This document shows positions 13,727-30,400 of a DNA stretch of 64,000 nucleotides, piece by piece. The position numbers and the translations under genes were made by a program. The DNA is taken from IMG/VR virus record IMGVR_UViG_3300025030_000071, positions 22,749-86,748 of that record; one strand, written 5' to 3'. Source of the stretch: a virus. Under the pieces are notes generated by a model. The model ran no database searches and was not told the DNA's origin. It was given only the letters and a program-made list of their open reading frames with translations. Each line of letters begins with the position of its first letter. The stretch's first letter is position 1.

Positions 13727-13736
13727 GGAGTAGACA

Positions 13737-14375: not shown

Positions 14376-14411
14376 ACCGGAACTAACTAAATAATTAATC
14401 CTGTAATTGTA

Positions 14412-14452
14412 ATAAGGCCAGTATCGACAAGGTACTGGCCTTATGTCGTTTA
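14412..14452 (+). terminator. 14-bp hairpin after sheath-tube pair (terminator/attenuator)
   Basis: ATAAGGCCAGTATC-gacaa-GGTACTGGCCTTAT with weak T tail. Confidence 0.7.
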
Positions 14453-14464
14453 AAAGGATGCCCA

Positions 14465-15229: not shown

Positions 15230-15234
15230 TCAGT

Positions 15235-16434: not shown

Positions 16435-16451
16435 TAGAAGGAAGTATTTTT

Positions 16452-16817
16452 ATGTTTAAAGATAAGATCATTGTCCTAGTAGAACGCAGAGGATTCTCAA
16501 TTGGCAAGATTGCACAGCCAAACCAACTTGGTCATGGCGACGTTATCGAACTTTATGACGCAAAGACTGAAGAGCCAATCCGTCACAAGACTGGAGCTTC
16601 TTACATTTGCACTTCAAATCCCAAGAAGGCCCCTAGTGGCGAATGGCATATTGATTATGTCCCCGTCCTAGAAGCAAATGACGTCTTCAATGAGCTTGGT
16701 GATGGTGGAACCTTCACTGTCGCCCAGGATACAAGAGGCAATTTCCAGCCAGGTGATAAGTTGAGCCAGGGCAATGTCTGGGACCAGGTCCCAATGTACA
16801 ATCGCAAGAATGCCTAA
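16452..16817 (+). CDS. Hypothetical protein
   Basis: 121 aa ORF, AAGGA SD-like. Confidence 0.7.
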   Translation: MFKDKIIVLVERRGFSIGKIAQPNQLGHGDVIELYDAKTEEPIRHKTGASYICTSNPKKAPSGEWHIDYVPVLEANDVFNELGDGGTFTVAQDTRGNFQPGDKLSQGNVWDQVPMYNRKNA

Positions 16818-16884
16818 GCCAGTAATCAATACCAACGGTCAGGTAACTAAGCCTGACCGAACAAAGCCAATCGTAAAGAAATAA
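16810..16884 (+). CDS. Possible 24-aa basic peptide (MPKPVINTNGQVTKPDRTKPIVKK)
   Basis: Fills the gap between ORF 16452 and the SD of ORF 16894; below ORF-track cutoff. Confidence 0.35.
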   Translation: MPKPVINTNGQVTKPDRTKPIVKK

Positions 16885-16893
16885 GGAGTCAAT

Positions 16894-16995
16894 ATGCTTT
16901 CATTTTTATTTGGGGCTACCTGTGGTGTGGTCGGAACAATTTTCTTCCCCTTGTGGAGTAGACCTTTTAAAAAATGGCTTGGCTTGAGTGCGTGA
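16894..16995 (+). CDS. 33-aa single-TM membrane peptide (MLSFLFGATCGVVGTIFFPLWSRPFKKWLGLSA)
   Basis: TAAGGAG SD, hydrophobic helix plus basic tail, TGATG coupling to next ORF. Confidence 0.6.
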   Translation: MLSFLFGATCGVVGTIFFPLWSRPFKKWLGLSA

Positions 16996-17261
16996 TGGAT
17001 CCAGGTCACGGCAATCAGTGTTTTGCAATTCGCTGTACCCACATACCCACCGGCATCACGGCTAGTGGGTGCAGCTGCTCTTTAGGGACTCATAGTCATT
17101 TTTTAACAAAGAAGAAAGTTCTTTGCTATCTTAGATCAAAACTAGCTGTTCATTTAAACCCTTCCATCCTCCCCCCAGAAACAACCAAGGATTATATCTT
17201 ATACGATGGCGAAAACGTACCTAGACTACAAGATAGAATCGACCAGCATATACCGGACTGA
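16995..17261 (+). CDS. Peptide-chain-release-factor-like mini-protein lacking GGQ
   Basis: 'AIRCTHIPTGITA...S...K.K....LRSKL...KDYIL' parallels RF1/RF2 'AVRITHIPTGIV...SQHKNK..A...L.AKL...IRSYVL'. Confidence 0.55.
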   Translation: MDPGHGNQCFAIRCTHIPTGITASGCSCSLGTHSHFLTKKKVLCYLRSKLAVHLNPSILPPETTKDYILYDGENVPRLQDRIDQHIPD

Positions 17262-17922
17262 CTTTGAAGAAGGTCATGTAGTCTGGACCCCCCTTCCTTG
17301 GTCTGAATATCGCAAATACAGAGAAGCAAGAGACTTCATGGGTGCCACCATCGACATCCAATTAGAAGAATCTATCTTTAACAAATGCGTTCTTTACTCT
17401 AGCTTTGACGAAGACCCACCAGAAGAACTCTCAGAAGAAGAGAAATGGCGTTGGACAGAAGACTCCCGCGCTCATCAAGATGCTGGCATCATATCTTCAG
17501 TAGTAAAGAATGTCCTTTCTGTATCTGGCACTTTAAATCCTAATTCCATAATAGAAGTTATTTCTTATAATAGACAAGCTGTTGCTAATATCGAAGACCA
17601 GCTAATTGTTTTTATATGTAATGCATTCCCTGCTTATACTCCAGAAATGGTAGAAGCGATGGAATGGGCTACTATACTTAAAAGAGCAGCTCAGGCAGAA
17701 ATGATATTACAAACTGAAATCCAGATAACTGATCCAGAAGAAGAAAGGGTCAAAGCAGCTAGGGCTCAGAAGATCAATATCGAAAAGGAAATAGCTGAAG
17801 TAGGTGCTGCCATGGGCGGCAGATCAAAACAAGACAAAGCAATGGAGCAGCAAGCTGCTGCCGATCACAGAAAGCAGATGGGCGAGCTGAGAGGACAATA
17901 CCTTAGATCAAGAGGCATGTAA
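17206..17922 (+). CDS. Tail assembly chaperone 2
   Basis: Paralog of ORF 15922 ('WTPL.W.EYR...EESIF.KCVL...AGIISS'), plus 'I..AFP.Y.PE..E.M......R.A.AE'; directly precedes tape-measure region. Confidence 0.65.
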   Translation: MAKTYLDYKIESTSIYRTDFEEGHVVWTPLPWSEYRKYREARDFMGATIDIQLEESIFNKCVLYSSFDEDPPEELSEEEKWRWTEDSRAHQDAGIISSVVKNVLSVSGTLNPNSIIEVISYNRQAVANIEDQLIVFICNAFPAYTPEMVEAMEWATILKRAAQAEMILQTEIQITDPEEERVKAARAQKINIEKEIAEVGAAMGGRSKQDKAMEQQAAADHRKQMGELRGQYLRSRGM

Positions 17923-20900
17923 ATGGAAGAAAAGCCTCTTATCAGTGGTGTTGATAAAAAGCCTTTTATCGAAGTCACCAACCATGAATACGATGAATCT
18001 AGAAGATGGACCCAGGGGCTAACTTATCTTGCTCTATCAAGTGTGGCTTTAGTTGGTGTTAGGTTCGCCAGCAATATTACTTTAAATATAGATCCAAGTA
18101 GATTATCTTATCTTACTCAGGGTCTTGGCAACTGGTGGGAAGTAGCTGGTTATCAATTAGATGCAACTGGCAAAACCCCAGTTAGATTAAGAGACTTCGC
18201 CTTAGAAGGCATCAAGCGTGTCGAAGAAACCATGGGGGGCATTCCGAGAACCTTCGGTCTCTTTGGATATGCTTCCGCCGGCACGCTGACAACTCCTGCC
18301 TCTCGTTTAACAATTCCCCCAGAAGCTCTTGTTGGAGCTAGATCCCATTACGAAACCCTCTTAGGTGAAGCTGGTCATACTCTAACCCCAGAGGACATGA
18401 TCAGAGGCTTCAAGGTCCAGCCGCACGAAGGCAGACCAGCTTTGTTCCGCCTTGCCCCTGACAGTAGTATCTCTGGCGACCCACTTATCTCCGATGTAGA
18501 TATCAGAGCACGTCGTTGGCAGGTCGAAAAGGACTCCCTTCGAGATGCTGAAGGTCGCCTCAAATACCAACACGTAATCAAAGAAACAGAAGTCTACAGT
18601 GATATCGCCGGCGCCAAACCAATCAGCAGAAACAATGAATTCAGATATGTAGTAACTAAAGCTACTGGTAAACCAAAAATCTCTGGAGTCTTGAGAGAAG
18701 CGTTAGAACCATTCCTTAATGTTGATAAGTTAGAATCAAAGATAAACATTCCTCCAGAAGCCCACAAAGTACTTCAAGGTGCTCAGGTATTTGGAAAGCG
18801 CATGACGGAACGTTATATGCGTGTTCTAGATAGCCCGTTGGAATTCATAGAAGAAGTTGTTTATGGTGGACCTTCTTCTGAAAGAGGACTTCTTAAAAAG
18901 AGTATTGAAAGCAAACCATATTCATTCTTTAAGAATGTCTTGGGTGCAGGAGGGGATTATTCAGGCACTGCTTTAGACTTGTGGGGTCGTCATATAAGCA
19001 GGCTCCTGCCAATTGTTGTTGGTGGTGCAGCTGCTTATGAAGTCGGCTCTGCTGTAACAAATCTTTTCTTTGGCAGAAATCTAGAACAGATGGGAGGAGA
19101 AGCTGTTGCAGCAGGTGAAAGAACTTATGCTGGCATCTCTGACCTTACAGGCCTAACTGCTCTAAACAAATATCAAAAAGACAAAGCAGAAGGCTCTCAC
19201 CGGCTCTTAGGCGTTATGGCTTTTCCACTTTCGGGTGCTCTAACTGGATGGGTAGCCGCCGGCCTAACAAACAAATTAGCAACCCCTGAAGGCGTTTTCC
19301 CTTGGGCACATGCCAGAGAAGCGGTCCATGATGCCCCAGCTATTCTCCAGAAAGCGGAAAAGGTTCCACTCCTAGGTAAACTCTTTGGTGCTGGGATGAC
19401 TAGAGGAGCTAAATTCGCTGGGATAGGTGGAGCTATTGGCGGGCTTCTTTCATTACCATTCTTAATTGGTTCTTTAGGTTCCGGCTCCTCCTATAGGGAA
19501 GTGGCTGCTGAGCAGTCTGGAGAAGCTGAAGTATCTATAAAGAAAGGAAGATTTTGGGAATCCGGAAAGTCGGACATCGAGGGCGAAGGAGAACAGATCT
19601 ATACTGAAGGCTGGTATAGAAGATTAATGAACGAAGGCATAGACGACCTTAATTATGGAGACTATGCTGACAGACCTTTCTCAAGAATGATTAAAGGAGT
19701 TACAGATCCCTACTACATTGAAAAAGAAATGTATCATGAAAGACCTTACCCAATTGCAACAGCAGATGATTCTTTTGCGGGTCCGTTAGGTCCAATCTGG
19801 GCGGCCACAATAGGTAGAGTTCTAAAGCCAACCAAATATATGCATGCTGATGAAACATCCGCAGGCGGCCTCGAAGGCATCCAGCAAGGCGAAGCAATCC
19901 AGTATGGGAAGGACGTCTCTCAAGCCCCAGGAGGCGATTTAAGGAGTTCTGGACCTGCGCCTGCACTCACCCCCTTAAGCCCATCCTTCACAGCCGGAGA
20001 AACGATCTACAGAGCTTCTGACGCTGCTGGTTTACCTGGTTATATATTAAGCGAAGCCCTCGGCTCAGACTCTTGGTGGGCTGACAAACCAGTACTTGCT
20101 TCTTCAAGTGATATTGGCAATATGCGTAATTCATTCTGGGATTGGGAAATTGGTGGTGGCGCCATGACCAGTGAGGGAATCCGCAGATTTCTTCCCAAAG
20201 ACAGAACTGATATCCAAACCGTTAACCCAATTGCAAACGATATGCCTGCATGGCTCCCAGGGGCTGATTACTTCCAAGGCTCATTCTTGGAAGGGGACCC
20301 TTACTCTGGCAGAAGGATGAAGGAAAGACTGCCAGGCCCTGGTTTCGCTTCTCGCTTCCCAGAATTGGAAGATGTTCCATATGAAGAATATCCTGATATC
20401 TTCAAGTACAAGATATTAGCCGATGTTGCTAGGTCAAGTGATGAGTTTAAAGAAGTAGCTGGCAGAGTTAAAAACCAAGCAGACTCTGGAGAACTCCCCT
20501 ATAGAGATCAGGCTATTTATGCTGGGACCCAAGCACAACTCTTAGAAAGAGAAAAGAAACTTTCATTTAGAGGAGAGCCAGAAGGCATCTTAGGCAACTA
20601 CTGGGCGGGTCTAACCTCAGCCGGCCACCTAAACCCAGTTGAACATTTACTGCCCACCTCTCCTGTACATAAATCCTCAGGACCAGTTTCACCAATCCAG
20701 ACTTATGAAGAACGAGAAGTATACAGCAAGACTTCTCCTCAATGGAATAAACCAATAAGTGATTTCATTTTACCAGCAGCTAGAACAGCCGTTGCCGCAA
20801 CTGGTGTCGATTTCATCCCAGCTCCAGTCCAAGAAGAGCGAGATCTAAAACAATACTTTGATATCTTAGATTATACTAAAGCTAAAAAACTAGAAGGTGC

Positions 20901-21726
20901 TGCTAGAGAACAAGGTGAAGGCAGAGCTGCTTTTGCTTTTGCTAGAAAAGCTGAATTCACTATGTACGGTGCTGATCCATATGCCGACGTAGAGACAGTT
21001 GAGAAGGTAATCCCCCGAGAAGAGAAACCATACTTCAGGGAATTTGTTGCTGAAGATGACCCAGAAGTTAGAAAGAGAGTGCTTGAAGCCTCTCCAGCAT
21101 ATATGAAGAAATTCTATATGGCTCAATGGCAAAAGAAACTCTATGGGTTCTTAGCCTCCAAAGATGAAATCTCTGACCAAGAATCAGAAGCCATGCAGGC
21201 TATTGAAGCTTCTAGAGCCTTAGAAGGCCAGTCAGCTTCAATGGATATGTTCGGGGACTACTACTCAGGTGTTCAATCAGGTGATATAAGACCTAACACC
21301 TTTCCTGATTTTATTAGGGCAAAAAGATTAGAGGGTTATTTTGAAGAAGAATCTCCTTTTAATGCACCAGCTTCGGATTGGATCGGCTACAATCCTGGTG
21401 CTAATATGGACAGTATCAAGCTAAAAGTAGTACAAGCAGAAGGACTCGACCACCACGATTTCGATTTGTGGGAAGATGATTCAGCCCAGGCTGAACGAGA
21501 TTTGTACGCTGCCGAAGGTGCTAGGGATCTAATGAATGGCCCTGGAGAAGACCCTAACGAATTATCTAAATCTTTAATGGCTCTTAGATTAAGAGATTTG
21601 GATGTTCAGTTCACCAGTTCACCAGGAGACAAAACTAGAATAGTTTTAGATCTTGCGATGGATAAACGTGGTGAGATTAAGCGCCAACTTGAGCTTCAAG
21701 GGATCAGGTATGGAGTCGACACGTAA
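17923..21726 (+). CDS. Tape measure / ejection-type protein with multiple hydrophobic segments
   Basis: 1267 aa directly after chaperones; Gly/Ala hydrophobic helices (LLPIVVGGAAAY, LLGVMAFPLSGALTGWVAAGL, FAGIGGAIGGLLSLPFLIG). Confidence 0.6.
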   Translation: MEEKPLISGVDKKPFIEVTNHEYDESRRWTQGLTYLALSSVALVGVRFASNITLNIDPSRLSYLTQGLGNWWEVAGYQLDATGKTPVRLRDFALEGIKRVEETMGGIPRTFGLFGYASAGTLTTPASRLTIPPEALVGARSHYETLLGEAGHTLTPEDMIRGFKVQPHEGRPALFRLAPDSSISGDPLISDVDIRARRWQVEKDSLRDAEGRLKYQHVIKETEVYSDIAGAKPISRNNEFRYVVTKATGKPKISGVLREALEPFLNVDKLESKINIPPEAHKVLQGAQVFGKRMTERYMRVLDSPLEFIEEVVYGGPSSERGLLKKSIESKPYSFFKNVLGAGGDYSGTALDLWGRHISRLLPIVVGGAAAYEVGSAVTNLFFGRNLEQMGGEAVAAGERTYAGISDLTGLTALNKYQKDKAEGSHRLLGVMAFPLSGALTGWVAAGLTNKLATPEGVFPWAHAREAVHDAPAILQKAEKVPLLGKLFGAGMTRGAKFAGIGGAIGGLLSLPFLIGSLGSGSSYREVAAEQSGEAEVSIKKGRFWESGKSDIEGEGEQIYTEGWYRRLMNEGIDDLNYGDYADRPFSRMIKGVTDPYYIEKEMYHERPYPIATADDSFAGPLGPIWAATIGRVLKPTKYMHADETSAGGLEGIQQGEAIQYGKDVSQAPGGDLRSSGPAPALTPLSPSFTAGETIYRASDAAGLPGYILSEALGSDSWWADKPVLASSSDIGNMRNSFWDWEIGGGAMTSEGIRRFLPKDRTDIQTVNPIANDMPAWLPGADYFQGSFLEGDPYSGRRMKERLPGPGFASRFPELEDVPYEEYPDIFKYKILADVARSSDEFKEVAGRVKNQADSGELPYRDQAIYAGTQAQLLEREKKLSFRGEPEGILGNYWAGLTSAGHLNPVEHLLPTSPVHKSSGPVSPIQTYEEREVYSKTSPQWNKPISDFILPAARTAVAATGVDFIPAPVQEERDLKQYFDILDYTKAKKLEGAAREQGEGRAAFAFARKAEFTMYGADPYADVETVEKVIPREEKPYFREFVAEDDPEVRKRVLEASPAYMKKFYMAQWQKKLYGFLASKDEISDQESEAMQAIEASRALEGQSASMDMFGDYYSGVQSGDIRPNTFPDFIRAKRLEGYFEEESPFNAPASDWIGYNPGANMDSIKLKVVQAEGLDHHDFDLWEDDSAQAERDLYAAEGARDLMNGPGEDPNELSKSLMALRLRDLDVQFTSSPGDKTRIVLDLAMDKRGEIKRQLELQGIRYGVDT

Positions 21727-24700
21727 TGGGTAACAGTAGCGATTCATTCTGGGGGGAGTATGTAGCTCCAGCTGCCTTATTAACGGGAGCCGGGATCACT
21801 GGCTATCGCACATTCCAACAAGTAAGTGCAGGTCGTATATCTGCACCTTGGCGCCAGCAAAAAGAACAAAAAGACCTTCTCCAAAAACTAAAGAGTGCAA
21901 GAGCTAACCGCTATGAAATCTCTGCAACTGATTTAGCAGATGCTTTAGACTTTGATACTAGCCGATATAAAGGCTTTAACATCTTTACAAAGAACAGAAG
22001 CAAAATTGAACCAGCATTTAAAACAGCCAAAGAACTAACCGTCAAGAGCCTATTACGTTCTTTTAACTTAAGCTCCTATGCTCAAACAGAACTAAAGGTT
22101 AACTTAGAGAATTTAGGCGATATATCAGCAGCTAACCTAAGGCATTTAATAGGGCTTTCGCCAAGCCACAAACAGCATGTTGAAAGAGTTGCTCGCTCAA
22201 CGGGTTTATTACATTTAGTGGATATCCCTGGCGCTGATACGGCAACAGGTCAATCGCTAGAAAAAAGAGCTAAGTTAGCTTACAAACAACTCATCACAGG
22301 GCATGAAGGACTTATAGACAGAACAGCTCCTGATCTTGGTGCTTTTATGGAAGAGCATAATATCTCAAGCGAGATACAAAAGCACAGAAGAATAAAACAG
22401 ATACAGATGGATTCTCCCGAAGTTATCGCTGCATATTTTGAAGAATATGGCTTTGGCAAAAGAGAAGACTTAATAGCTAAAACCCATCGTCTTTTCCAAG
22501 CCGCTAAAGGCAAGGGGTTAAAGACTCAATTAATCCTCTTAAAAGAAGGCGCCAGAACAGAACTCTCCCAAGTAAGAATCTCAAGTGGTAAAGCATTCCA
22601 GGATATCCCAATCCAGCAAGCTAACGGAAGAATAAGACTTGGTGCATTAAGCCCAACTGAATATGTAGCTAGACAGGCTTTAAATCCAGGAGAAATGAGA
22701 TCATATTTAGCTGGCAATAAAGGCACAAAGATCAGTATGGGTGCTGACGAATTCCTGATGGATTACTTTACTGAGAATATGGATGATCTTGTTGAAGGCG
22801 ATAAGTACAAGAGGTTTGTACGTTCTCATATCCAAGTAGGCAGAGAAGATATGGGTAGATTACTCATCCCTACTGTTGCTAATGAAGGACTCAATGTAAA
22901 GCGTGTCTATGAAATGGCTGCTAAAGGATTTGGCGCTTCTGCCGACGAACTCTCTTCTTTGAGAAAGATGTTAGCTGAACGCAATAACTACGACCCAGTC
23001 GCTGGCCTCGGTCCAAACCAGGTTACAAATGATGTTTTTACCCTTCCTCATCCTAGCGGGAGAATAGCAGGTTCACTTCCGGTAGGATACTCTGCTGATT
23101 CCAGAACTACAGCCCAGAGATCACGTCCTTTTAAAATCTTAAATGAAGGTAGGGGCGCAAGTACTAAATTTGTGGGGATGTTAGAAGAGCAATCAGGGGA
23201 CCAGATGCTGCGCATGCGCACAGCGGCAATTCCAGAAGAACATTTAAATGCTTTGCTTGCTGGCTCCAGTAGACCTGAGCTAAGAGCTAATGATGATATC
23301 CTATTTTTATTGGATCGTAATATTAGATATGGTGAAAGCCGCACCATAAGATTAGGTAAAAGCAATCTTCAATCTGCCAAACTTGAAGAACTTCTACAAA
23401 ACGAGACATTAAGGAGGCACGCTTTTGGAGAAGGCATCCAAGCTAGAATCTCTTTCCTTGAAGGTTTAGGTGGAGATACCATAACCGCAGAACAAAAAGC
23501 GGAAAGAGATCTGTTAGAACAAGCTAGAAGGATTTCTCCATCTGAAATTCTTGGGGAATCCTCAAAGGGGGGCTTTCAGAAAGGCCCAAAGTCTGGGAAT
23601 TTTCTTCTAGACAAAATCTTAGAAGATCCAAAGACTGGTGAACTTGCTTTAGCAGGGATGGACGAAAGAACCTTGGGGGATACTGAAAAACTCTTCGGCA
23701 ATAAAAAAGTTATTCAGATGGTGCCTGCAAGGACAGAATTCCGGGGTCTGGCTACTATATATGAAATGGCCAAAGGGTCGTCAGACATATTGCCAATTAT
23801 GGCGCTACCTGAAGGGCCAGAACGTGCCGCTGCATTAAAAGATTTCTATGGTAAATATATGGATGCTTTCCGCAGAAGCTACGGTAAGGCAATAAAATCC
23901 AACAACGGATTTACTTATAGGATTGACCCCAACACAGGTTCTACACACCACATCACTGTAGAAGAAATCATTCGAGGTACCCCAGAATTTAGGGATTTTG
24001 AATTAGGTCCACCAACGGAACCAGAAGTCTTGAGAAGAGCCCCAATTGAAGAGGCTTTAAGAAGAACCCGGGGGGTACAAGCAGTTGAGTCTCAGGGTAT
24101 AAAGAAAATAGGTGAAAAATCCCTAGATACAATCACGACTGCTATGCTTGCAGAACTTTCTGAAAGACACCAGGGAATAGTTAGGGAAGCCGATACAGCA
24201 GCTGCTCATCTCGCAGGTTCTAGTGGCCTAGGTGGCGATTATTCTGATTGGCAAAGAGCCTATTCAGAAGGAGGCGCAGAAAAAGCAAGATTCGGCCATG
24301 CCTTAAGAAGTGGGATAAAAGGTGAAGAATTGGCAGCGGCCAGAGCTGGGATGAAGCGAGCGAAATGGCTTTCTTCTGAAACTGCAAGACTAGACCCCTC
24401 AGTTCAAGGATCCCAATTTACAATTGGCCAATACCAAAAAGAAAGAAGAGACATAGAAGGTTTCTTCGCAGAAGTCGGCATCACCCCAGGAAAAGATAAC
24501 ATCTATAGATATCAAGATGCCCTTACCACATTAAGAGACCCTAGATCAACACAAAATGTAACCAACTTGTTTGATAAGGCCTTGGGGCTTACAAGAGACA
24601 TCGGGATGAGAAATAAGCTTTCTCTTTGGAGCACATCTCAACTCTTTGCAGATATTGCCTCACAACTAGAAGGGTTCAAGGAGAAAGGAGATCTAAGTAC

Positions 24701-27449
24701 TAAAGGCTTAGCAATTAGAGAATTGCTCTGGAAGGACCAGCAAGTAACTGCTGAGATGCTGGACCAGGCCATCCAACAATTCCAAACCCTTGGTAGCCGG
24801 AGTCGCAAAAATGCGGATATCGCTTTTGACCAAATGGTAAAAGGCGAAATGAAGGTTGGCCCTATGGCCAATCTGGACCCCAAACAAATTAGAGAACTTA
24901 TCATCAGAGGAGTTGAACCGCAATTACAGCATCAAGTTTACAACCTGCCGGTAGCAATAGGCGGCAGGTCTACCCTTACAAGTGCTTCTGGCGGCATGGG
25001 TTCTATGAGCTTAGCGAATGTTGGCCACATGAGAGAACAAGGCGGGGTAATGGCCGAATTAGCTGATGAACTTTTAGGCAGACAAACTGGTACCAAATTA
25101 GAACAAGCACAAGAAATTGCGAAAAGATTTACTGCTTTCCAGGGAACAATCCCAGAAGGAATCCAAGCAATTCCATTAGCAGAATTTGCTAACAACTCTG
25201 GGGTAGGCAATGACTATATAGAAGGGCTTTTCAGCCCGACCCAGCCAGAACGAAATGCAGCCTTTGACAAGATTGGTGCTCAGTATGGATTAGACAAACC
25301 ACAGTCTTTGTACTTTGATATTGGTGGCGGAAAATACATCTATCACCCGAGGGCCACTAGCCCACAAACTGGCTCTTTTATTACCTCGGAAGGCCAAGCA
25401 ATCCGGAGTGATCTAGATAAATCATTTGCTGATATTATTAAGGGCCACCAGGTAAATAGCCCTAGTTTAATAGAAAGTGGAAAAAAGGCTTATGGGGAAG
25501 CGATAGTAGAAAGTACTATCGGTCGTGACAAACCACTCATAAAAGCTTACTCTGGAAAAGTTCTAGGATCTATGCGTGGTCAGGCTCGCCCACAATTATC
25601 AGAAGAATTCTTTACTTACTTAAAAGATAAAGGTCTTACTCATAGAGTTGGGATTAGAGAAGCAACCTTCCAGTCCATGTCAGCCCAGGCTGGGATGGTC
25701 GACCAATACAAAGAAGGTTTGGGGTCATTGCGCAGAGGCGAATATGGCATGGTCCTAAGTCGAGACCCACAAACAGAACTTTATAGAACAATGGCGGCTC
25801 AGGGCTATAGTCTTGACGAAGCAGTGGGAGAGTTCACTGATAAAAGACTAAGCGGCATGAGCTTAGAAGAAAAACAATTAGAACTGGTTGGGGTAACAGG
25901 CGAAGAAAAATATAATAAATTTAGAGAAAATTATTTAGAAAAGAGTAGGAAAGCACAGGAAGCAGTGGCTCTGGCACGTAAAAAGCTTGCAGATTCGCAT
26001 CCGAATGCAGACCAAAGACCTTTTGAGAGAAGGGTCGAGAAAGCTGAAAGAAGATTGGAAAAGTTAGGCAGCTGGGAAGGAGCTATTAGCGAGAAAATAA
26101 AGAAGAGCAGATTGGCCGCCTTTGGGAAAGAAGGTGTTTATCTTCCAGAACATGTGTTAAAAGGTCTGGGCGCCGACTTCGACGATGACCAAGTAAACCT
26201 TTTCTTAGCCAAAGACAAAAATGCACGTCAGCGTTTGTCAGAAAGAGCAGGCCACCAAAACGATCTTGTTGCAAGTTGGATGGACCAAACAAATAAAGGC
26301 ATGGCAGATACAGACATTGTGGCGCAGGTAAGAGCAGGCAGAACTGACGAGATGATGAGACCTGAACAACTTCTAGCAGAAGAGGATTTCCTTTACAAGG
26401 CCAAACACAAAGCCTTATACAGCCAGCTCTATGACCGTCCTGGCGGTATTATATCAGCAGAAGCACTTATGCCTGGAACCCCAGAATGGAAACAAAGAGT
26501 AATAGGCGAAATGACAATGGCCCAACTAGAAAAAGGTGAGATCGGTTCCATGTCCAATGCTGTTGACTTTGTTAGAACATCTTTAAGAGCTAAGACTTCT
26601 TCAGATAAAGCTTCAGGAAAATTGTTTACTGAAATGCTATTAGGCATCATGCCAGAGTTACCCCTAAAGGGCAAACAGTACGGCGCCCAGGGCATCGAAG
26701 AAGCAAAAATCCATATCCTTAACTTAAGAAATATCTTGTCTGGCAGAGCGCCAATTTCTACTAGCCCTCAGGCACTTTCAGAAAGCTTTCAGGCTTCATT
26801 CAAGAGCATCATGGGGAGCCATCCAGTTGTTGAAGATATGATGAAATTTGTTCCCGATGTGATAGCTGAGGTTAAAGCTGGCAGCCGTGGAGAAAACGTT
26901 TTTACAAGAATGCTTAAATCTAGACAAGCGGCAGAAGTAAACTTAGACCATTTAATGAAACTGGCCATGGACCCAACCGTGCCATCTCCACAAGGAGAAC
27001 TGATAAGGGAAGCAGCTGGCCAAGCTCCAAGCAAAACAGGTGAAGCTGGAAGACATATTAAGAATGCAAGAGAATCTTTTAGTGATGTTTATAACATAAT
27101 GAAGAAAAATAAAGGTCCTTTGCTTATTGGTGCCGCTGCCGCAGTCGGTGTCTCAATGTTATTGGGAAGTCCAGGGCATATCTCAGAAGAGGAAGCTAAC
27201 GCTGCCGGCGCCAGGCACCAGCCATCTGGAGACCCATCAATCCCACCAATTGAATCAGGGAACTTTGCAAGAGTATCTCCTAGCTCTGGTGGTTCAATCA
27301 GAATTCGTGGAACAGCAGATAGTTCAGTAAGTCAGCAAAGTGTATTATCAATGCTTCAGTCAAAGTATCCTGGAGCTGATGTTTCATATAATATTAATGA
27401 TTATAGTTCATCAATCAACGAAGAGTACTTACGTAGAAGGGTAGGATAA
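21726..27449 (+). CDS. Giant tail-locus protein with two-barrel RNA polymerase-like motifs (candidate virion RNAP)
   Basis: GDTEKLFGNKKVI (beta-like), SGKVLGSMRG and VLSRDP (beta'-like), GADFDDDQ (26169-26192), IGSMSN, in the expected order. Confidence 0.65.
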   Translation: MGNSSDSFWGEYVAPAALLTGAGITGYRTFQQVSAGRISAPWRQQKEQKDLLQKLKSARANRYEISATDLADALDFDTSRYKGFNIFTKNRSKIEPAFKTAKELTVKSLLRSFNLSSYAQTELKVNLENLGDISAANLRHLIGLSPSHKQHVERVARSTGLLHLVDIPGADTATGQSLEKRAKLAYKQLITGHEGLIDRTAPDLGAFMEEHNISSEIQKHRRIKQIQMDSPEVIAAYFEEYGFGKREDLIAKTHRLFQAAKGKGLKTQLILLKEGARTELSQVRISSGKAFQDIPIQQANGRIRLGALSPTEYVARQALNPGEMRSYLAGNKGTKISMGADEFLMDYFTENMDDLVEGDKYKRFVRSHIQVGREDMGRLLIPTVANEGLNVKRVYEMAAKGFGASADELSSLRKMLAERNNYDPVAGLGPNQVTNDVFTLPHPSGRIAGSLPVGYSADSRTTAQRSRPFKILNEGRGASTKFVGMLEEQSGDQMLRMRTAAIPEEHLNALLAGSSRPELRANDDILFLLDRNIRYGESRTIRLGKSNLQSAKLEELLQNETLRRHAFGEGIQARISFLEGLGGDTITAEQKAERDLLEQARRISPSEILGESSKGGFQKGPKSGNFLLDKILEDPKTGELALAGMDERTLGDTEKLFGNKKVIQMVPARTEFRGLATIYEMAKGSSDILPIMALPEGPERAAALKDFYGKYMDAFRRSYGKAIKSNNGFTYRIDPNTGSTHHITVEEIIRGTPEFRDFELGPPTEPEVLRRAPIEEALRRTRGVQAVESQGIKKIGEKSLDTITTAMLAELSERHQGIVREADTAAAHLAGSSGLGGDYSDWQRAYSEGGAEKARFGHALRSGIKGEELAAARAGMKRAKWLSSETARLDPSVQGSQFTIGQYQKERRDIEGFFAEVGITPGKDNIYRYQDALTTLRDPRSTQNVTNLFDKALGLTRDIGMRNKLSLWSTSQLFADIASQLEGFKEKGDLSTKGLAIRELLWKDQQVTAEMLDQAIQQFQTLGSRSRKNADIAFDQMVKGEMKVGPMANLDPKQIRELIIRGVEPQLQHQVYNLPVAIGGRSTLTSASGGMGSMSLANVGHMREQGGVMAELADELLGRQTGTKLEQAQEIAKRFTAFQGTIPEGIQAIPLAEFANNSGVGNDYIEGLFSPTQPERNAAFDKIGAQYGLDKPQSLYFDIGGGKYIYHPRATSPQTGSFITSEGQAIRSDLDKSFADIIKGHQVNSPSLIESGKKAYGEAIVESTIGRDKPLIKAYSGKVLGSMRGQARPQLSEEFFTYLKDKGLTHRVGIREATFQSMSAQAGMVDQYKEGLGSLRRGEYGMVLSRDPQTELYRTMAAQGYSLDEAVGEFTDKRLSGMSLEEKQLELVGVTGEEKYNKFRENYLEKSRKAQEAVALARKKLADSHPNADQRPFERRVEKAERRLEKLGSWEGAISEKIKKSRLAAFGKEGVYLPEHVLKGLGADFDDDQVNLFLAKDKNARQRLSERAGHQNDLVASWMDQTNKGMADTDIVAQVRAGRTDEMMRPEQLLAEEDFLYKAKHKALYSQLYDRPGGIISAEALMPGTPEWKQRVIGEMTMAQLEKGEIGSMSNAVDFVRTSLRAKTSSDKASGKLFTEMLLGIMPELPLKGKQYGAQGIEEAKIHILNLRNILSGRAPISTSPQALSESFQASFKSIMGSHPVVEDMMKFVPDVIAEVKAGSRGENVFTRMLKSRQAAEVNLDHLMKLAMDPTVPSPQGELIREAAGQAPSKTGEAGRHIKNARESFSDVYNIMKKNKGPLLIGAAAAVGVSMLLGSPGHISEEEANAAGARHQPSGDPSIPPIESGNFARVSPSSGGSIRIRGTADSSVSQQSVLSMLQSKYPGADVSYNINDYSSSINEEYLRRRVG

Positions 27450-30400
27450 TGGCAGTAGATCAAGATGGCCTATTCAATGACATTGCAAGAGCAGCCCATT
27501 TCTATGATGCAGAGAACATAGAATCAGAAACCGTTAGCGAATTAAAAATTGGCGATCACCCAATCAACTGGGGCGATACTAATTACAAAGAACTTGTTAG
27601 CGGTGAATTCAGAATCAATGGGATAGCATTCCCAGTAGACCCCCAGAACATTTCCATTTGGGAAGAAAACCAGAACTATAAGTATGAAACCCTAAGAACA
27701 AGAGAATCTACCAAAGTACGTTCCGGCCATTCATCAATAAACATGAGTGTGCAGGCAATCTTTGCAGGGAAAACTGTTCTGTTTGGCGACAAGCACCTTC
27801 TTCAGACAACAAAGAATGCTCACTTCGCTCTCAACCATACCCTTATGCCAATCCTCTATAGTCTTAAAAAGATGCCTCTTTGTTTCTTGGACAACGAATT
27901 GCTAAGAACAACCCTGCCTGTTTCCTCAGATGAGAATATTGCTGCTTTCGTAAAGTCAGTAAACGTCAGTACGGTACAAGGAATGCCAGAAGTCCTTTCA
28001 GCCACCTTCCAATTTGTCTGGTATAACCACAGGCCCTTTGCCCCAAGGATCAAGTTCAGAGAAAACTGGTTAGATAAAACTGGGACAGTTGAGAGGATTG
28101 CTGATACTTACAGGGGCATGGCGGTTGATACAGCTCAGACAGTGGTTGGGGCGTCAAATGCCGTACGCGAGGGAACGGACGGTTATGCCTCGCACGTAGG
28201 CCGTGCCGCTTTCATCAAGCAGTATGGGCATCCCAGTATCGCCTTCAATGCAACAACAGGATTAACCGCCACAGAAAACATATACAATGCCGCGCCTCTA
28301 CGTGAATACCTTTGGCCATATGCTTACGAATCAACAAACCCAGCAATCGTAGCTTTAGGTAATGACCCAGCGATTGCAGCAATGCCTCCTTTTGTCCTTA
28401 GCGGATTTGATAGAACAATCAATTTAGATTTTACTATAGTAAAAGCACCAGATACTGTTTTCTACAAAGGTGCTGAAAGAAGTATTTTAGAGTTAGGTGA
28501 ACAAATTGTTCGAGATGACGTTATAAAAGAATACACCTTTGATGATAATGAAACCAACTCTGGGTCTGTCCCAGTTGGATATGTCTGGCCATTAAGTCCA
28601 AAGGGACGCCTTTCCAGCCACACAGGAGCCCGTACTCTCGACGGTGCAACAGGAGACCATCAAGGCATTGACATCCATGCGACAAGGGAATCTAAAGTTT
28701 TAGCTGTTGCCGATGGCAAAGTTTACTATACCTCGCCTCCGGGTCAGCTCAATGATAAGGCTGGTTACTTCATTGAGATCAGCCACAGAGGAGGAGTGTT
28801 TTCAAGATACCTTCATCTAACAAGCGTGAATGTGAAGAAAAACGACATAGTAAGAGCTGGAGACGTTATAGGTCTTGCAGGCAACACGGGTGTCACCAAC
28901 GTTGGGAGCAGCGGGGATGAAAGGATACATCTCCACTTTGAACTAAGAACAGGCGGCCCCAAAGGGCCTTATGTACCAGATCCAGAGAAGCTGTTAAAGG
29001 GTTCAGGCGAACCCCACCATACAGTTTCAACTACAAACCGTTTGATAACCCGCTTTGACCCAGCAGATATCCTATCAGTTATAAATAAAGACCTTGAAGA
29101 CATGCCAGAAGATACTGTTATGTCAAAAATTAATAAATTCATTAGTTCTAAAATGGTACAGGGAAGTACCTTGGCGGCTCAGGCAATGCAGGTAGGGGCA
29201 GGACCTGCTTTAACTAATTTGGTTTCTGGCAGGCAGGCGCCTCCCCCGGATAGCGATGCCCAAACCCTCACCACCGCCATAAACAAACTTATATCTGAGG
29301 GCTGGCACTTTGAGCGAGACCTGAATACTGGCAAGCCAGCACAGATCCGTTACCTAACTCTCTCTGCCAGATCAGACTCTGCTGATATTATTCCTCAAGA
29401 AATAAACTTTGGTTTTGGCACTAACCTAGCTATGACCCCTTTACAAGGCCATAGATTCCCAACGGTCCAATACGTAGGTGGCCAACAATCAGCTATTACG
29501 ATAGCGATGAGAGCAGAAGGCAAATACGGTAGAGAGTACATTAGAAAACTAAAAGACCTAATAGCCTCTACAGAAGAATCAGCTATTCATTTCAGGGAGT
29601 TCACAAAATACAGAGGCATTGGAATAACCAACCAATTAATTAACTCAGTTAACATCAATGAAGTTATTCTTGAGGATATGACGGTTGATGCCATCCCAGG
29701 CAACCCCGAAAGTCTTCAGATAGTATTAAGATTTGTAGACAACTCTAGAGACAAGGCCGCACCACCATTCTTGGTGCCTAGAGACGAAGTAAGTCAAGAC
29801 GATGCAGTCTTAAATGCCTTTGCTTATATCCTTGATCAAGGATGGATCCAAATAGCTATAGAAAAAGAAACGGCAAGAATAAGAACTGGTAAAACGCGAG
29901 CAGAATATAATCCCTATGCTGTCGGGGCCGGAGTAACGAGTGTGCCGATCCTTACAGATGAGATAGATGTTTATAAATTAACTCCAGAAACAAGACCGTT
30001 ACTCCATCCTAATATTGTCCAAAAACAATTGACAAACATTAAAGAGTATATACGAACAAAAGAATATGTTGCAAGAGATGGCGGACTTGCCAATAATGCC
30101 CCATACAATCTTTACAGCATTGATGAGTACAAGGAACTGTCAGGTGTTTCCATGCCATTGGCCTTTAAGGATTATAAATTCACAGAAATTATTTGGAACG
30201 CTGCTGACAACACGATCAGAGATCCTGTCTCCAAGGCGGTGCTTACAAACAAACTTTTTGAAATTATTGCCATCTTAGGAACTCCACAAAGCGACGGCAT
30301 CCCACTTGACCCTTACTTTGCGAAATTATTAACCGAGATAGGAAATACAGTTAGCTTTGTAAAGGGCAATGGATGTTACCCAGATCTACTATTGCCTCCA

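What the first reader, a model, noticed from the sequence alone, without database searches (positions are those of the whole stretch)
21726..27449. Candidate virion-injected single-subunit RNA polymerase in the tape-measure locus of a myovirus
Seen: this 1907-aa protein sits between a tape-measure-like gene and the baseplate hub. It contains, in order, RTLGDTEKLFGNKKVI (K655/K660, nt ~23676-23711), SGKVLGSMRGQAR (~25551), GMVLSRDP (R1346, 25761), GVYLP...LGADFDDDQVNL (D1484-D1488, 26175-26189) and KGEIGSMSN (26541). Known: these parallel the beta GDKxxGRHGNKGVI lysines, the beta' GKRVDYSGR, VLLNRxP and NADFDGDQ motifs, and the IGxxxN helix of YonO/QDE-1-type single-chain two-barrel polymerases. 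Virion RNAPs of this fold are known from crAss-like phi14:2 gp66 and from the tape-fused gp96 of Thermus siphovirus P23-45. Inference: this phage packs an RNAP in its contractile tail and injects it to start early transcription. A pipeline would likely label it hypothetical or tape measure.
Basis: partly seen in the sequence, partly recalled or inferred. Interest (0 to 1): 0.93.

Follow-up and report, generated by a model that had tools for sequence, protein, structure and literature searches.

The report
Hidden RNA polymerase in phage tail
A 1907-residue unannotated gene in the tape-measure slot of an uncultured ~200-kb contractile-tailed phage is predicted with high confidence to be a very diverged one-chain version of the cellular RNA polymerase core with its catalytic residues intact. 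The phage probably carries it in the particle and injects it to start its own transcription, but neither packaging nor activity has been shown.

Summary
ORF 21726-27449 (+) is intact, and every quoted motif sits at or within about 10 nt of the stated coordinates. The motifs are conserved in all 32 family members found among 1.84 billion protein representatives: an acidic pair at 523/524, K655, K/R660, R1346-x-P1348, D1484-x-D1486-x-D1488 and LEKxxIGxMxN.

Sequence methods see nothing above threshold (Pfam, PHROGs, PDB profile search). The only signal is a sub-threshold Rpb1 domain 2 match on the DFDDD loop.

An AlphaFold2 model of aa 470-1669 (pLDDT 84.8, pTM 0.83) was compared with 48,161 PDB chains. 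The top 12 are all two-barrel RNA polymerases. QDE-1, RDR2 and Thermus phage P74-26 gp62 score Z 10.6-11.4 and span both barrels. The largest subunits of cellular and viral RNAPs score Z 8.8-10.

Both flanking genes are clear homologues of Bacillus phage 0305phi8-36 gp145 and its hub gp147. The gene therefore fills the gp146 "tape measure" slot, whose product is a virion protein in that phage.

The RNAP fold is about 90% likely. Virion delivery for early transcription is inferred, at about 55-60%.

It is a new family and a new setting (contractile tail, separate gene) of a known kind (P23-45 gp96, crAss gp66). The scan has noted similar tail-slot proteins on other DNA in at least 58 genomes. 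Slot proteins of the cultured phages ME3, KLEB27-3 and WH1 carry the same motifs.

The parts
21726..27449 (+). P0001, 1907-aa tail-slot protein containing a single-chain two-barrel RNA polymerase core
   Evidence: ORF list and translation. Family of 30 clusters only. AF2 model with fold searches.
21747..21806 (+). Conserved N-terminal Gly/Ala-rich hydrophobic segment (aa 8-27, FWGEYVAPAALLTGAGITGY)
   Evidence: F8, G10, Y12, A14, P15, G21 and G23 are invariant in A1. It falls below the TM threshold in the hydropathy scan. Its role is unknown.
23208..23720 (+). Beta-like barrel (DPBB-B), aa ~495-665, with a helical insert
   Evidence: Strands at model 26-74 and 139-196. QDE-1, RDR2 and gp62 alignments start at model residue 26. 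The domain modelled alone gives only weak beta/Rpb2 matches.
23292..23297 (+). Acidic pair D523-D524 (family consensus HEDE). Candidate fourth metal-site carboxylate, as QDE-1 D709 or beta E813/D814.
   Evidence: D524 is invariant in A1. An [ED][ED] pair is kept in nearly all 32 sequences. The role of QDE-1 D709 is taken from PMC9508822. The equivalence itself is inferred.
23688..23705 (+). K655 ... K660, the two basic residues of the beta-like barrel (GDKxFGxK)
   Evidence: K655 is universal and position 660 is K or R in all family members.
23733..25553 (+). ~600-aa mostly helical connector between the barrels (aa ~670-1276). The first ~520 aa are clamp-like or lineage-specific, with an insert unique to this phage at ~aa 880-960. 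The last ~140 aa (from model 670 = aa 1139) already align with the N-terminal region of RNAP largest subunits.
   Evidence: Secondary structure of the model. Gaps in homologues at alignment columns 940-1000. Largest-subunit alignments start at model 670. No specific fold match was obtained for the earlier part.
25554..26210 (+). Beta'-like barrel (DPBB-A), aa ~1277-1495, including GSxRxQA, RxP and DxDxD
   Evidence: Model strands at 808-820, 839-841, 871-876, 886-893, 1001-1004 and 1020-1025. DPBB and RNAP matches. Sub-threshold PF00623 match at 26142-26237.
25761..25769 (+). R1346-D-P1348 (RxP, counterpart of beta' NRxP)
   Evidence: Universal in the family.
25812..26117 (+). ~100-aa helical hairpin inserted in the barrel between RxP and DxDxD (aa 1363-1464). 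Its length varies among homologues.
   Evidence: Model helices 894-995. Variable columns 1560-1690 of A1. Matches only generic helical hairpins.
26175..26189 (+). Catalytic loop D1484-F-D1486-D-D1488
   Evidence: Universal Asp triad.
26481..26594 (+). Bridge-helix-like long helix (aa 1586-1623) carrying LEKGEIGSMSN
   Evidence: Model helix 1117-1154. E1602, K1603, G1607 and N1611 are near-invariant. RNAP alignments extend through it to residue 1200.
26610..26729 (+). Following long helix (aa 1629-1668) with EMLLGIMPE..LK. Candidate trigger-loop base.
   Evidence: Model helix 1160-1199. E1644 and K1648 are near-invariant. The assignment is inferred.
27045..27446 (+). Conserved C-terminal module (aa 1774-1907): TM-like helix 1797-1815 (nt 27114-27170), Pro-rich linker and a small terminal domain
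   Evidence: Hydropathy and highest conservation. It is the only part with sequence similarity to slot proteins of cultured relatives: WH1 gp095 E 3.6e-5, 0305phi8-36 gp146 domain E 0.0027, and hhalign E 5.9e-4.
17923..21726 (+). P0002, 1267 aa, homologue of 0305phi8-36 gp145 / ME3_35 / WH1 gp096 (virion structural). It has four TM-like segments. Its stop overlaps the P0001 start (TAATG).
   Evidence: phmmer E 5.5e-54, 9.6e-49 and 3.8e-40. Hydropathy. Junction sequence.
27449..33244 (+). P0003, 1931 aa, baseplate hub with an M23 peptidase domain. Its start overlaps the P0001 stop (TAATG).
   Evidence: Pfam PF01551 E 7.5e-22. Homology to hubs WH1 gp094, KLEB27-3 gp035, ME3_37 and 0305phi8-36 gp147. 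Junction sequence.
15922..17922 (+). Tail chaperonin pair (15922-16434 and 17206-17922) preceding the three giant genes
   Evidence: phmmer to WH1 gp098/gp097, ME3_33 and 0305phi8-36 gp143/gp144.
10889..15894 (+). Tail sheath (10889-13726) and three tube paralogues (13737-15894)
   Evidence: phrog_16991. tblastn to sheaths of ME3 and 0305phi8-36. Tube homology.

Best explanation
P0001 is a single-polypeptide two-barrel (cellular-type) RNA polymerase of a previously undescribed family.

Its core (aa ~495-1670) has these elements in order:
- a beta-like barrel that supplies K655, K/R660 and an acidic pair (D523/D524);
- a large helical connector;
- a beta'-like barrel that supplies R1346-x-P and the Mg-binding D1484-x-D-x-D1488 loop, interrupted by a helical hairpin;
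- a bridge helix.
This fold assignment is shown at the level of a confident model and conservation.

The gene lies in the late tail operon, translationally coupled between the gp145-like protein and the baseplate hub. That is the slot whose product in 0305phi8-36-type jumbo myoviruses is a virion protein.

Inferred mechanism: the protein is assembled into the tail (lumen or hub region) through its conserved C-terminal module (TM-like helix plus a small domain). It is expelled through the tube on sheath contraction and refolds at or in the cytoplasmic membrane. There it transcribes the first-entering (early) genes independently of host RNAP. It may also help to draw the ~200-kb genome in, as proposed for P23-45 gp96.
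For: Fold:
- AF2 model of aa 470-1669: pLDDT 84.8, pTM 0.83.
- All top 50 Foldseek PDB matches are bacterial beta' (best E 2.9e-4, probability 0.75-1.0 across the 50 rows).
- 517 of 986 re-aligned chains reach Z >= 8, and all 50 listed rows are RNAPs.
- In the unbiased search of 48,161 chains the top 12 are all two-barrel RNAPs: QDE-1 Z 11.4 (288 aligned, rmsd 4.1), ZmRDR2 10.9 and P74-26 gp62 10.6. These three span model 26-1200. P23-45 gp96 scores 7.2-7.3.

Sequence:
- Catalytic and structural residues are universal across a family at 17-40% identity.
- PF00623 hits exactly the DFDDD loop (14.5 bits, E 0.002 for the genome).

Virion context:
- P0002 and P0003 are homologues of 0305phi8-36 gp145 and hub gp147 (E 5.5e-54 and 2e-19).
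- Chaperonins and tube proteins are syntenic.
- The three-giant-gene row is kept in all related loci.
- Both junctions are TAATG overlaps, and no promoter or terminator excess occurs in the row.
- 0305phi8-36 gp145 and gp146 are annotated as found in virions by mass spectrometry.
- KLEB27-3 gp034 and WH1 gp095 are annotated as structural proteins and carry NRYPT...KAD[YH]DGD.
- The P0001 C-terminal module matches WH1 gp095 and 0305phi8-36 gp146.
- The best viral structural matches include a 'minor tail protein' and a ME3 protein.

Other RNAPs: no second RNAP was detectable in a 204-kb relative that CheckV rates as 100% complete.
Against: - No experiment bears on this protein. Activity, template, packaging and ejection are all unshown.
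- There is no significant sequence match to any known RNAP. PF00623 is below its cut-off.
- The beta-like barrel modelled alone gave no significant match: Z <= 5.3 from helical noise in the wide search, and Z 2.9-3.8 to beta/Rpb2.
- Model coordinates could not be inspected, so convergence of the lysines and the Asp triad is known only through rigid-body alignments.
- A folded ~130-kDa core cannot pass a ~4-nm tail tube without unfolding. The protein could instead be in the head, or not packaged at all.
- Similarity to the proteins with virion evidence is limited to ~130 C-terminal residues at modest significance, with E-values taken from a 13-sequence database.
- 0305phi8-36 gp146 itself lacks the RNAP motifs.
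- No shared early-promoter motif was found.
Confidence: 0.58

Rival explanations
1. The protein has the RNA polymerase fold and is active, but it is not a virion component. It is made late with the tail proteins and acts inside the producing cell, for example as a late or very-late transcriptase, or as a primase-like starter of replication or packaging.
For: No direct evidence of packaging exists for this family. The complete 204-kb relative shows no other recognisable RNAP, so one enzyme might serve intracellular roles. QDE-1 and RDR2, the best structural matches, are not virion enzymes.
Against: - The gene sits inside a translationally coupled row of structural genes that is conserved in every relative.
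- It carries a conserved C-terminal TM-like module shared with virion slot proteins.
- An enzyme first made late cannot explain how transcription would start if it were the only phage RNAP.
- Motif-bearing slot proteins of KLEB27-3 and WH1 are annotated as structural.
Confidence: 0.15
2. It is a structural tail or ejection protein (a tape measure or channel former) that descends from an RNA polymerase. It keeps the fold but no longer polymerises RNA, or it uses the site only to bind DNA during ejection.
For: It occupies the slot called tape measure in 0305phi8-36 (PMC2147016). That phage's gp146 has no RNAP motifs yet shares the C-terminal module. The barrel carries an unusual ~100-aa insert and the Gly of DFDGD is replaced by Asp.
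Against: - All the key residues are strictly kept across sequences that are otherwise only 17-40% identical: the Asp triad, RxP, both basic residues, the acidic pair and the bridge-helix residues. That pattern is expected for a working active site, not a relic.
- The modelled core is a compact multi-domain enzyme, not an extended helical ruler.
Confidence: 0.12
3. It is a two-barrel polymerase with another specificity. It could be an RNA-dependent RNA polymerase like QDE-1/RDR2 or a PolD-like DNA polymerase, delivered or not.
For: The top structural matches are the RNA-silencing RdRPs QDE-1 and RDR2 (Z 11.4 and 10.9). QDE-1 itself has both DNA- and RNA-templated activity (PMC9508822).
Against: Z values for RdRPs, phage gp62 and cellular DdRPs are within about 1-2 units, so they do not discriminate. 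A dsDNA phage has no evident RNA template to copy. All phage members of the superfamily tested so far are DNA-dependent RNAPs (PMC5467207, PMC10770324, 10.1101/2020.03.07.982082). No PolD chain appeared among the listed matches.
Confidence: 0.08
4. The RNAP resemblance is an artefact of motif picking plus an over-confident model built from a shallow alignment.
For: The alignment has only 32 sequences. DxDxD is expected 0.24 times by chance in a protein of this size. No sequence method reaches significance. TM-scores are low (0.12) for the whole model.
Against: Foldseek and an independent aligner run on all 48,161 representatives both place RNAPs, and only RNAPs, at the top. Five separate motifs occur in the canonical order and are universal in the family. 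The motif-bearing strands form a barrel that matches unrelated DPBB domains at rmsd 2.2-2.5 A. An independent Pfam model hits the catalytic loop.
Confidence: 0.04

Closest known systems
Thermus phage P23-45 gp96 (virion RNAP fused to the tail tape measure protein; PDB 8H2M/8H2N) and its non-virion paralogue gp64 / P74-26 gp62 (PDB 8F5M); PMC10770324
   Same: - Single-chain two-barrel RNAP encoded in the tape-measure region of a long-tailed phage, with a DxDxD loop.
- No sequence similarity to other RNAPs beyond that loop.
- A membrane segment in the same protein and a metallopeptidase nearby.
- Structural match to gp62 Z 10.6 (265 aligned) and to gp96 Z 7.2-7.3, both spanning both barrels.
   Different: - No detectable sequence homology.
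- The host virus is a jumbo myovirus with a contractile tail, not a siphovirus.
- The polymerase is central in a 1907-aa protein, not at the N-terminus of a 5002-aa tape measure.
- The M23 peptidase is in the next gene (the hub), not fused.
- There is a ~600-aa connector between the barrels and a ~100-aa hairpin inside the Asp barrel.
- gp96 is flat and clampless. Whether this one is flat was not determined.
- The R-x-P to DxDxD spacing is 135 aa. That is outside the 20-100 filter used in that paper's survey, which would therefore have missed it.
QDE-1 (Neurospora, PDB 7Y7P/2J7N) and plant RDR2 (7W84): RNA-silencing two-barrel polymerases; YonO of SPbeta belongs to the same broad clade by literature
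   Same: These are the best structural matches (Z 11.4 and 10.9). The alignment runs from the lysine barrel through the Asp barrel to the bridge helix (QDE-1 residues 683-1134). Both barrels are in one chain, in the same order (basic-residue barrel first).
   Different: There is no PF05183 match in this genome or its relatives. The connector between the barrels is about 600 aa, against about 150-200 in QDE-1. The setting is a phage tail, not cellular silencing. YonO itself was not compared (no structure appeared in the lists).
crAss-like phage phi14:2 gp66 virion RNAP (PDB 6VR4; 10.1101/2020.03.07.982082)
   Same: A giant virion-associated protein with a non-canonical DFDxD loop (here DFDDD) and a two-barrel core embedded in a much larger polypeptide.
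   Different: gp66 belongs to a podovirus-like crassvirus and is encoded next to other ejected cargo proteins, not between tail-tube and hub genes. It did not appear among the rows listed here, which is uninformative. There is no sequence similarity.
Multisubunit virion RNAPs of phiKZ / AR9-type jumbo phages
   Same: These are jumbo myoviruses that bring their own two-barrel RNAP into the cell. The structural match to the AR9 and phiKZ non-virion beta'-like subunits is Z 8.1 and 7.7.
   Different: Those enzymes are split into 4-5 subunits, are packaged in the head, and are detectable with beta/beta' profiles. Here there is one chain, in a tail slot, and PF00562/PF00623 find nothing above cut-off.
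Slot proteins of cultured relatives: Bacillus phages KLEB27-3 gp034 and WH1 gp095, Acinetobacter phage ME3_36, Bacillus phage 0305phi8-36 gp146
   Same: - Same gene position: chaperonins, gp145-like protein, the slot gene, then the hub.
- Shared C-terminal TM-plus-small-domain module.
- KLEB27-3 gp034 and WH1 gp095 carry SAKMDMSGRF, NRYPT and KAD[YH]DGD. ME3_36 carries SREPAQG...GGDHDQDQ.
- A ME3 protein is among the best structural matches in BFVD.
   Different: Apart from the C-terminus there is no significant sequence similarity to P0001. The sizes differ (1603-2537 aa). 0305phi8-36 gp146 lacks any RNAP motif, and that phage has a separate QDE-1-like RNAP gene (orf99; PMC2147016). None of these slot proteins is annotated as an RNAP in the records seen here, nor in the 0305phi8-36 comparative paper. 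The ME3 genome announcement reports no RNAP at all.

Membership tests
Two-barrel (DPBB) RNA polymerase superfamily | Beta'-type double-psi beta-barrel carrying a DxDxD metal-binding loop preceded by an R/K-x-P strand | tested here: met
   D1484/D1486/D1488 and R1346/P1348 are universal in 32 sequences. Model 810-1039 matches DPBB domains at Z 6.8-8.2, rmsd 2.2-2.5 A, and RNAP largest subunits at Z 8.8-10.
Two-barrel (DPBB) RNA polymerase superfamily | Second (beta-type) barrel supplying two basic residues and an acidic residue to the same site | tested here: met
   K655 is universal, position 660 is K/R, and the acidic pair 523/524 is kept. QDE-1, RDR2, gp62 and gp96 align from model residue 25/26 through both barrels. 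Distances in the model could not be measured.
Two-barrel (DPBB) RNA polymerase superfamily | The beta-type barrel is recognisable on its own against beta/Rpb2 structures | tested here: inconclusive
   Domain model of aa 475-725: pLDDT 87.8. The wide search gave only helical noise at Z <= 5.3. Foldseek found no match at E < 0.001. In the re-alignment 43 of 50 rows are second-largest RNAP subunits at their hybrid-binding region, but with Z of only 2.9-3.8.
Two-barrel (DPBB) RNA polymerase superfamily | Bridge helix after the Asp barrel | tested here: met
   Long helix at model 1117-1154 with near-invariant E1602, K1603, G1607 and N1611. RNAP alignments run through it to residue 1200.
Two-barrel (DPBB) RNA polymerase superfamily | Template-dependent NTP polymerisation | not testable with these tools
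   Needs recombinant protein and Asp-to-Ala controls.
P23-45 gp96-type tape-measure-fused virion RNAP | Sequence homology to gp96/gp64 | tested here: not met
   Neither the single sequence nor the family profile finds any PDB chain (gp96, gp64 and gp62 are in the PDB) at E <= 10.
P23-45 gp96-type tape-measure-fused virion RNAP | RNAP domain fused in one polypeptide with a tape measure that has membrane and metallopeptidase domains | tested here: not met
   P0001 has one C-terminal TM-like helix but no peptidase. The M23 domain is in the separate hub gene P0003. The core is globular rather than an extended ruler.
P23-45 gp96-type tape-measure-fused virion RNAP | Presence in the virion and transcription of pre-early genes | not testable with these tools
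   Only positional and annotation-level evidence from relatives is available.
QDE-1 / RDR / YonO clade (Pfam PF05183 RdRP) | Match to the PF05183 profile | tested here: not met
   No match at E <= 1 in the window's genome or in four related records. Pfam scans of P0001 gave no family.
Cellular-type beta' (Pfam PF00623 RNA_pol_Rpb1_2) | Score over the curated cut-off (25.3 bits) | tested here: not met
   14.5 bits on the DFDDD loop in the genome search and 12.5 bits in the protein scan. The hit is suggestive in location only.
crAss-like gp66 virion RNAP | Structural or sequence similarity specific to gp66 | tested here: inconclusive
   gp66 (6VR4) was not among the rows listed, and lists are capped at 50 rows. 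There is no sequence match.
Tail tape measure protein | Gene directly upstream of the hub, following the chaperonin pair, with its C-terminus conserved with lineage tape-measure candidates | tested here: inconclusive
   The position equals that of 0305phi8-36 gp146, and the C-terminal module is shared at modest significance. However, P0002 lies between the chaperonins and P0001. Nothing here shows that P0001 sets tail length.

The most novel reading that the evidence does not exclude
The 'tape measure' slot of the whole 0305phi8-36 / ME3-type jumbo-myovirus lineage is a cargo-delivery position. A conserved C-terminal anchor (TM helix plus a small domain) docks the protein at the hub or tube, and the rest is exchangeable. 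In most lineages that cargo is a complete single-chain RNA polymerase. It is threaded unfolded through the contractile tail tube, refolds while anchored at the membrane channel, and both starts transcription and pulls the ~200-kb genome into the cell. These phages would then be fully independent of host RNAP from the first second of infection, using a single one-chain enzyme.
Probability: 0.3. Interest if true: 0.85.

Novelty: new variant of a known kind. Interest (0 to 1): 0.72.

Why it matters
Virion-borne two-barrel RNA polymerases are known from very few systems: the phiKZ/AR9 multisubunit enzymes, crAss gp66 and P23-45 gp96. Only gp96 is linked to a tail.

This family would extend the principle to contractile-tailed jumbo phages. 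It uses an enzyme that no sequence method recognises, and it would have been excluded by the motif-spacing filter of the published survey.

Slot proteins with the same motifs exist in the cultured phages Acinetobacter ME3 and Bacillus KLEB27-3 and WH1. The idea can therefore be tested directly by virion proteomics, rifampicin-resistant early transcription and in vitro assays.

It also raises a physical question: how does a polymerase with a ~130-kDa catalytic core get through a tail tube?

Finally, it adds a deeply diverged branch, with an unusually long inter-barrel connector and a hairpin inside the catalytic barrel, to the evolutionary picture of cellular-type RNA polymerases.

Tried and rejected
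Searches that found nothing above threshold:
- Pfam, PHROGs, single-sequence and profile searches of PDB sequences, and tblastn against 50,697 phage records gave nothing for P0001. The exception is a sub-threshold PF00623 hit.
- The exhaustive profile search of 1.84 billion representatives found only the family itself, 30 hits and no known RNAP.
- hhalign of the family against KLEB27-3 gp034 alone, or against the three Bacillus slot proteins, aligned only the C-terminus (E 0.0054 and 5.9e-4, probability 7-29%).
- The family HMM did not find ME3_36, KLEB27-3 gp034 or 0305phi8-36 gp146 outside the C-terminus.

Lysine barrel on its own: no significant match.

Search for a second RNAP in the complete 204-kb relative:
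- PF00562, PF00623 and PF05183 found nothing.
- The family HMM run against all ORFs >= 150 aa found no paralogue.
- A [RK]xP...DxDxD scan gave only unconvincing candidates. One is a 1133-aa ORF with FDVDAD and no Pfam family, which was not followed up.

Promoter motif search:
- 10-mer enrichment in the intergenic DNA of the 204-kb relative returned only tRNA T-arm sequences.
- Sigma-70-like promoters and terminators in the tail row are at chance level.

Other:
- The ESM Atlas look-up gave only an unnamed cluster at 0.76.
- Model coordinates are not exposed, so inter-residue distances were not measured.
- No paper on KLEB27-3 or WH1 is held in the library.


Full report
**1. The observation**

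The window is the last 64 kb of an 86.7-kb IMG/VR virus record. CheckV rates that record 43% complete, which implies a genome of about 200 kb. ORF 21726-27449 (+) encodes 1907 residues without stops.

A single DxDxD is expected 0.24 times by chance in a protein of this size and composition. The motif alone is therefore weak evidence, and the weight lies in conservation and structure.

**2. The family**

The word-indexed search gave eight homologues of 1765-1863 aa at 30-35% identity over the searched region, all metagenomic and unnamed. A five-sequence profile of aa 600-1700 was run against 1.84 billion representatives. It returned only 30 proteins, all of the same architecture or fragments of it, and no known polymerase.

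In the nine full-length sequences the following residues are invariant:
- K655 and K660
- G1277, G1281, S1282, R1284 and A1287
- R1346, P1348, E1351 and R1354
- L1481-G-A-D1484, D1486 and D1488
- E1602, K1603, I1606, G1607, M1609 and N1611
- E1636-M-L-x-G-I-M-P-E1644

Across all 32 sequences, some only 17-19% identical to the query, several features remain universal:
- the Asp triad
- RxP
- K655
- a K or R at position 660
- an acidic pair at 523/524 (consensus HEDE)
- LEKxxIGxMxN

Pfam, PHROGs, PDB sequence and profile searches, and tblastn against cultured phages find nothing. The one exception is Pfam's Rpb1 domain 2 model. Run over the whole record, it hits exactly window 26142-26237, the DFDDD loop, at 14.5 bits. 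That is below its 25.3-bit cut-off.

**3. Structure**

AlphaFold2 was run on aa 470-1669 with the 32-sequence alignment. It gave mean pLDDT 84.8 and pTM 0.83.

- Foldseek against the PDB: all top 50 matches are bacterial beta' subunits, with best E 2.9e-4 and probability 0.75-1.0 across the 50 rows. Whole-model TM-scores are low, as expected for a 1200-residue multi-domain query.
- Re-alignment of Foldseek's best 1000 chains: 517 reach Z >= 8. QDE-1 is at the top (Z 11.5-11.6, 297-319 residues, rmsd 4.3-4.4 A). The largest subunits of bacterial, archaeal, eukaryotic Pol I/II/III, poxvirus and ASFV enzymes score about Z 10.
- A search that does not depend on Foldseek, over 48,161 representative chains, puts only two-barrel RNAPs in the first 12 places.

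The main rows of that unbiased search were:

| Match | Z | Model range |
|---|---|---|
| QDE-1 | 11.4 | 26-1200 |
| maize RDR2 | 10.9 | 26-1200 |
| Thermus phage P74-26 gp62 | 10.6 | 26-1200 |
| largest subunits of cellular and viral RNAPs | 8.8-10.0 | mostly 670-1200 |
| AR9 non-virion RNAP | 8.1 | 670-1098 |
| phiKZ non-virion RNAP | 7.7 | 670-1090 |
| P23-45 gp96 | 7.2-7.3 | 25/26 to 1029 or 1200 |
| plain DPBB domains (CDC48-N, VAT-N, designed DPBB) | 6.8-8.2 (rmsd 2.2-2.5 A) | within 810-1039 for most rows |

The single-chain enzymes align from model residue 25/26 to 1200. For QDE-1 the matched range is 683-1134. That range contains D709 and K743/K767 of its first barrel, D1007/1009/1011 of its second barrel, and the bridge helix (PMC9508822). 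The two barrels and the bridge helix of P0001 are therefore predicted in the same mutual arrangement as in solved enzymes. Coordinates are not exposed to scripts.

The lysine barrel was also modelled alone (aa 475-725, pLDDT 87.8). It gave no significant match. The wide search returned helical noise and Foldseek found nothing below E 0.001. However, 43 of the 50 best re-aligned chains are second-largest RNAP subunits matched over their hybrid-binding/DPBB region, at Z of only 2.9-3.8. I count that as consistent but not as independent proof.

**4. Anatomy**

In protein numbering:
- a conserved Gly/Ala-rich N-terminal segment (aa 8-27)
- an N-terminal region of unknown fold, up to about aa 470
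- the beta-like barrel (aa ~495-665, with a helical insert)
- a ~600-aa helical connector, whose last ~140 aa already align with the N-terminal region of RNAP largest subunits
- the beta'-like barrel (aa ~1277-1495), interrupted between RxP and DxDxD by a ~100-aa helical hairpin whose length varies among homologues
- a bridge-helix-like helix (aa 1586-1623)
- a further conserved helix (aa 1629-1668)
- the most conserved part of all, a C-terminal module with a TM-like helix (aa 1797-1815), a Pro-rich linker and a small terminal domain

**5. Context**

The surrounding genes form a myovirus tail module:
- sheath and three tube paralogues
- two chaperonins
- P0002 (1267 aa, four TM-like segments)
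- P0001
- P0003 (1931 aa, M23 peptidase, hub)
- gp25-like and gpJ-like wedge proteins

P0002 is a clear homologue of 0305phi8-36 gp145 (E 5.5e-54), ME3_35 and WH1 gp096. P0003 is a clear homologue of the hubs WH1 gp094, KLEB27-3 gp035, ME3_37 and 0305phi8-36 gp147. P0001 therefore occupies the slot of 0305phi8-36 gp146.

That protein was called a tape measure on the ground of tail length. The record annotation says it was found in virions by mass spectrometry (PMC2147016). Hardies et al. also noted that only the last ~60 residues of gp146 are conserved with its prophage counterparts. The same holds here: only the C-terminal ~130 residues of P0001 match other slot proteins. The matches are WH1 gp095 (E 3.6e-5) and 0305phi8-36 gp146 (domain E 0.0027), both in a 13-sequence database, plus hhalign E 5.9e-4.

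The three giant genes are kept in every related locus. In the window they are joined by TAATG stop/start overlaps. There is no excess of promoter-like or terminator-like sites in the row.

**6. Cultured relatives**

The slot proteins of Bacillus phages KLEB27-3 (gp034, 2434 aa) and WH1 (gp095, 2515 aa) are both annotated as structural. They contain SAKMDMSGRF, NRYPT and KAD[YH]DGD in the canonical beta' order, followed by an IGxxDN helix. KLEB27-3 gp034 gives a weak PF00623 hit.

ME3_36 (1603 aa, 'hypothetical') has SREPAQG...GGDHDQDQ. A ME3 protein is among the three best structural matches in the viral model library, together with a 'minor tail protein'.

0305phi8-36 gp146 has no such motif. 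That phage has a separate QDE-1-like RNAP gene (orf99; PMC2147016; the YonO-like enzyme noted by Iyer et al., PMC7824862, is likewise a gene outside the tail module).

None of the slot proteins is annotated as a polymerase in the records seen here, or in the 0305phi8-36 comparative paper. The ME3 genome announcement reports no RNAP at all.

The survey in the P23-45 paper required 20-100 residues between [RK]xP and DxDxD. P0001 has 135.

**7. Mechanism**

Shown at the level of prediction and conservation: a complete two-barrel polymerase core with every expected catalytic element under strong purifying selection.

Inferred: late synthesis with the tail proteins, incorporation into the tail through the conserved C-terminal module, ejection on contraction, and transcription of early genes.

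Supporting the last step, a 204-kb relative that CheckV rates as complete has no other recognisable RNAP. Very diverged enzymes could be missed, as this one would be.

Against the inferred steps: packaging is unproven, a folded core cannot traverse a tail tube, and no early-promoter motif was found.

**8. Comparison and novelty**

It works like P23-45 gp96 and crAss gp66. By the tests made, it is not a member of either family, nor of the PF05183 or PF00623 families. It is a new family of a known superfamily in a new setting: a contractile tail, a separate gene, a long inter-barrel connector and a hairpin inside the catalytic barrel.

A keyword look-up of this scan's earlier notes shows 70 findings in at least 58 genomes that hold all the search words. 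The eight shown are similar tail-module RNAP-like proteins of 1445-3475 aa on other DNA. The phenomenon therefore appears widespread among uncultured ~200-kb myophages. I have not let that move the scores.

**9. Verdict**

- Observation: confirmed.
- Interpretation: supported for the fold and the active site, plausible but unproven for virion delivery.
- Confidence: two-barrel RNAP fold ~0.9; catalytically active polymerase ~0.75; virion-delivered early transcriptase ~0.55-0.6.

Noticed in passing
L011:11451-18755 (KLEB27-3 gp034); L026:8758-16305 (WH1 gp095); L028:9173-13984 (ME3_36): The tail-slot proteins of three cultured jumbo phages carry beta'-type motifs: NRYPT...KAD[YH]DGD in the two Bacillus phages and SREPAQG...GGDHDQDQ in ME3. 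They are annotated only as structural or hypothetical, so the hypothesis can be tested in culturable systems.
   Followed up: partly
L012:14624-22237 (0305phi8-36 gp146): The founding 'tape measure' of this lineage shares only the C-terminal module with the other slot proteins and has no RxP/DxDxD motif. That phage has a separate QDE-1-like RNAP gene. The N-terminal cargo of the slot protein may therefore be exchangeable.
   Followed up: partly
L024:2511-6734 (own genome, upstream of the window): A 1408-aa protein combines protein-kinase-like domains (ABC1, Pkinase, RIO) with a C-terminal staphylococcal nuclease domain. The 204-kb relative has a 1279-aa counterpart with the SNase domain (L015:8036-11872, minus strand).
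   Followed up: partly
L024:10152-12536 and L024:15279-18374 (own genome, upstream of the window): The terminase large subunit appears to be interrupted by an intein (Intein_splicing / HINT, aa 154-284). The portal-like 1032-aa ORF has a weak LAGLIDADG match.
   Followed up: no
window 27449-33244: The hub protein P0003 carries an M23 peptidase (aa 403-503) and a C-terminal TM-like helix (aa 1823-1841). All three giant tail genes therefore have hydrophobic helices, four of them in P0002.
   Followed up: partly
window 55700-64000: Gene orientation flips to the minus strand, G+C drops from ~0.42 to ~0.34 and GC skew becomes strongly negative (-0.24 to -0.32). This is probably the start of the non-structural (early/middle) region.
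   Followed up: no
L016:16360-19758 (204-kb relative G001, 76360-79761): A 1133-aa ORF with no Pfam family contains RTP ... FDVDAD. It is the only other large ORF with an [RK]xP...DxDxD pattern in that genome, so it could be a second, unrecognised polymerase or a chance match.
   Followed up: no
G001 (L013-L023), intergenic DNA: The only enriched intergenic 10-mers are tRNA T-arm sequences (GGTTCGAATCC, 10 intergenic regions). The relative therefore carries a sizeable tRNA set.
   Followed up: no
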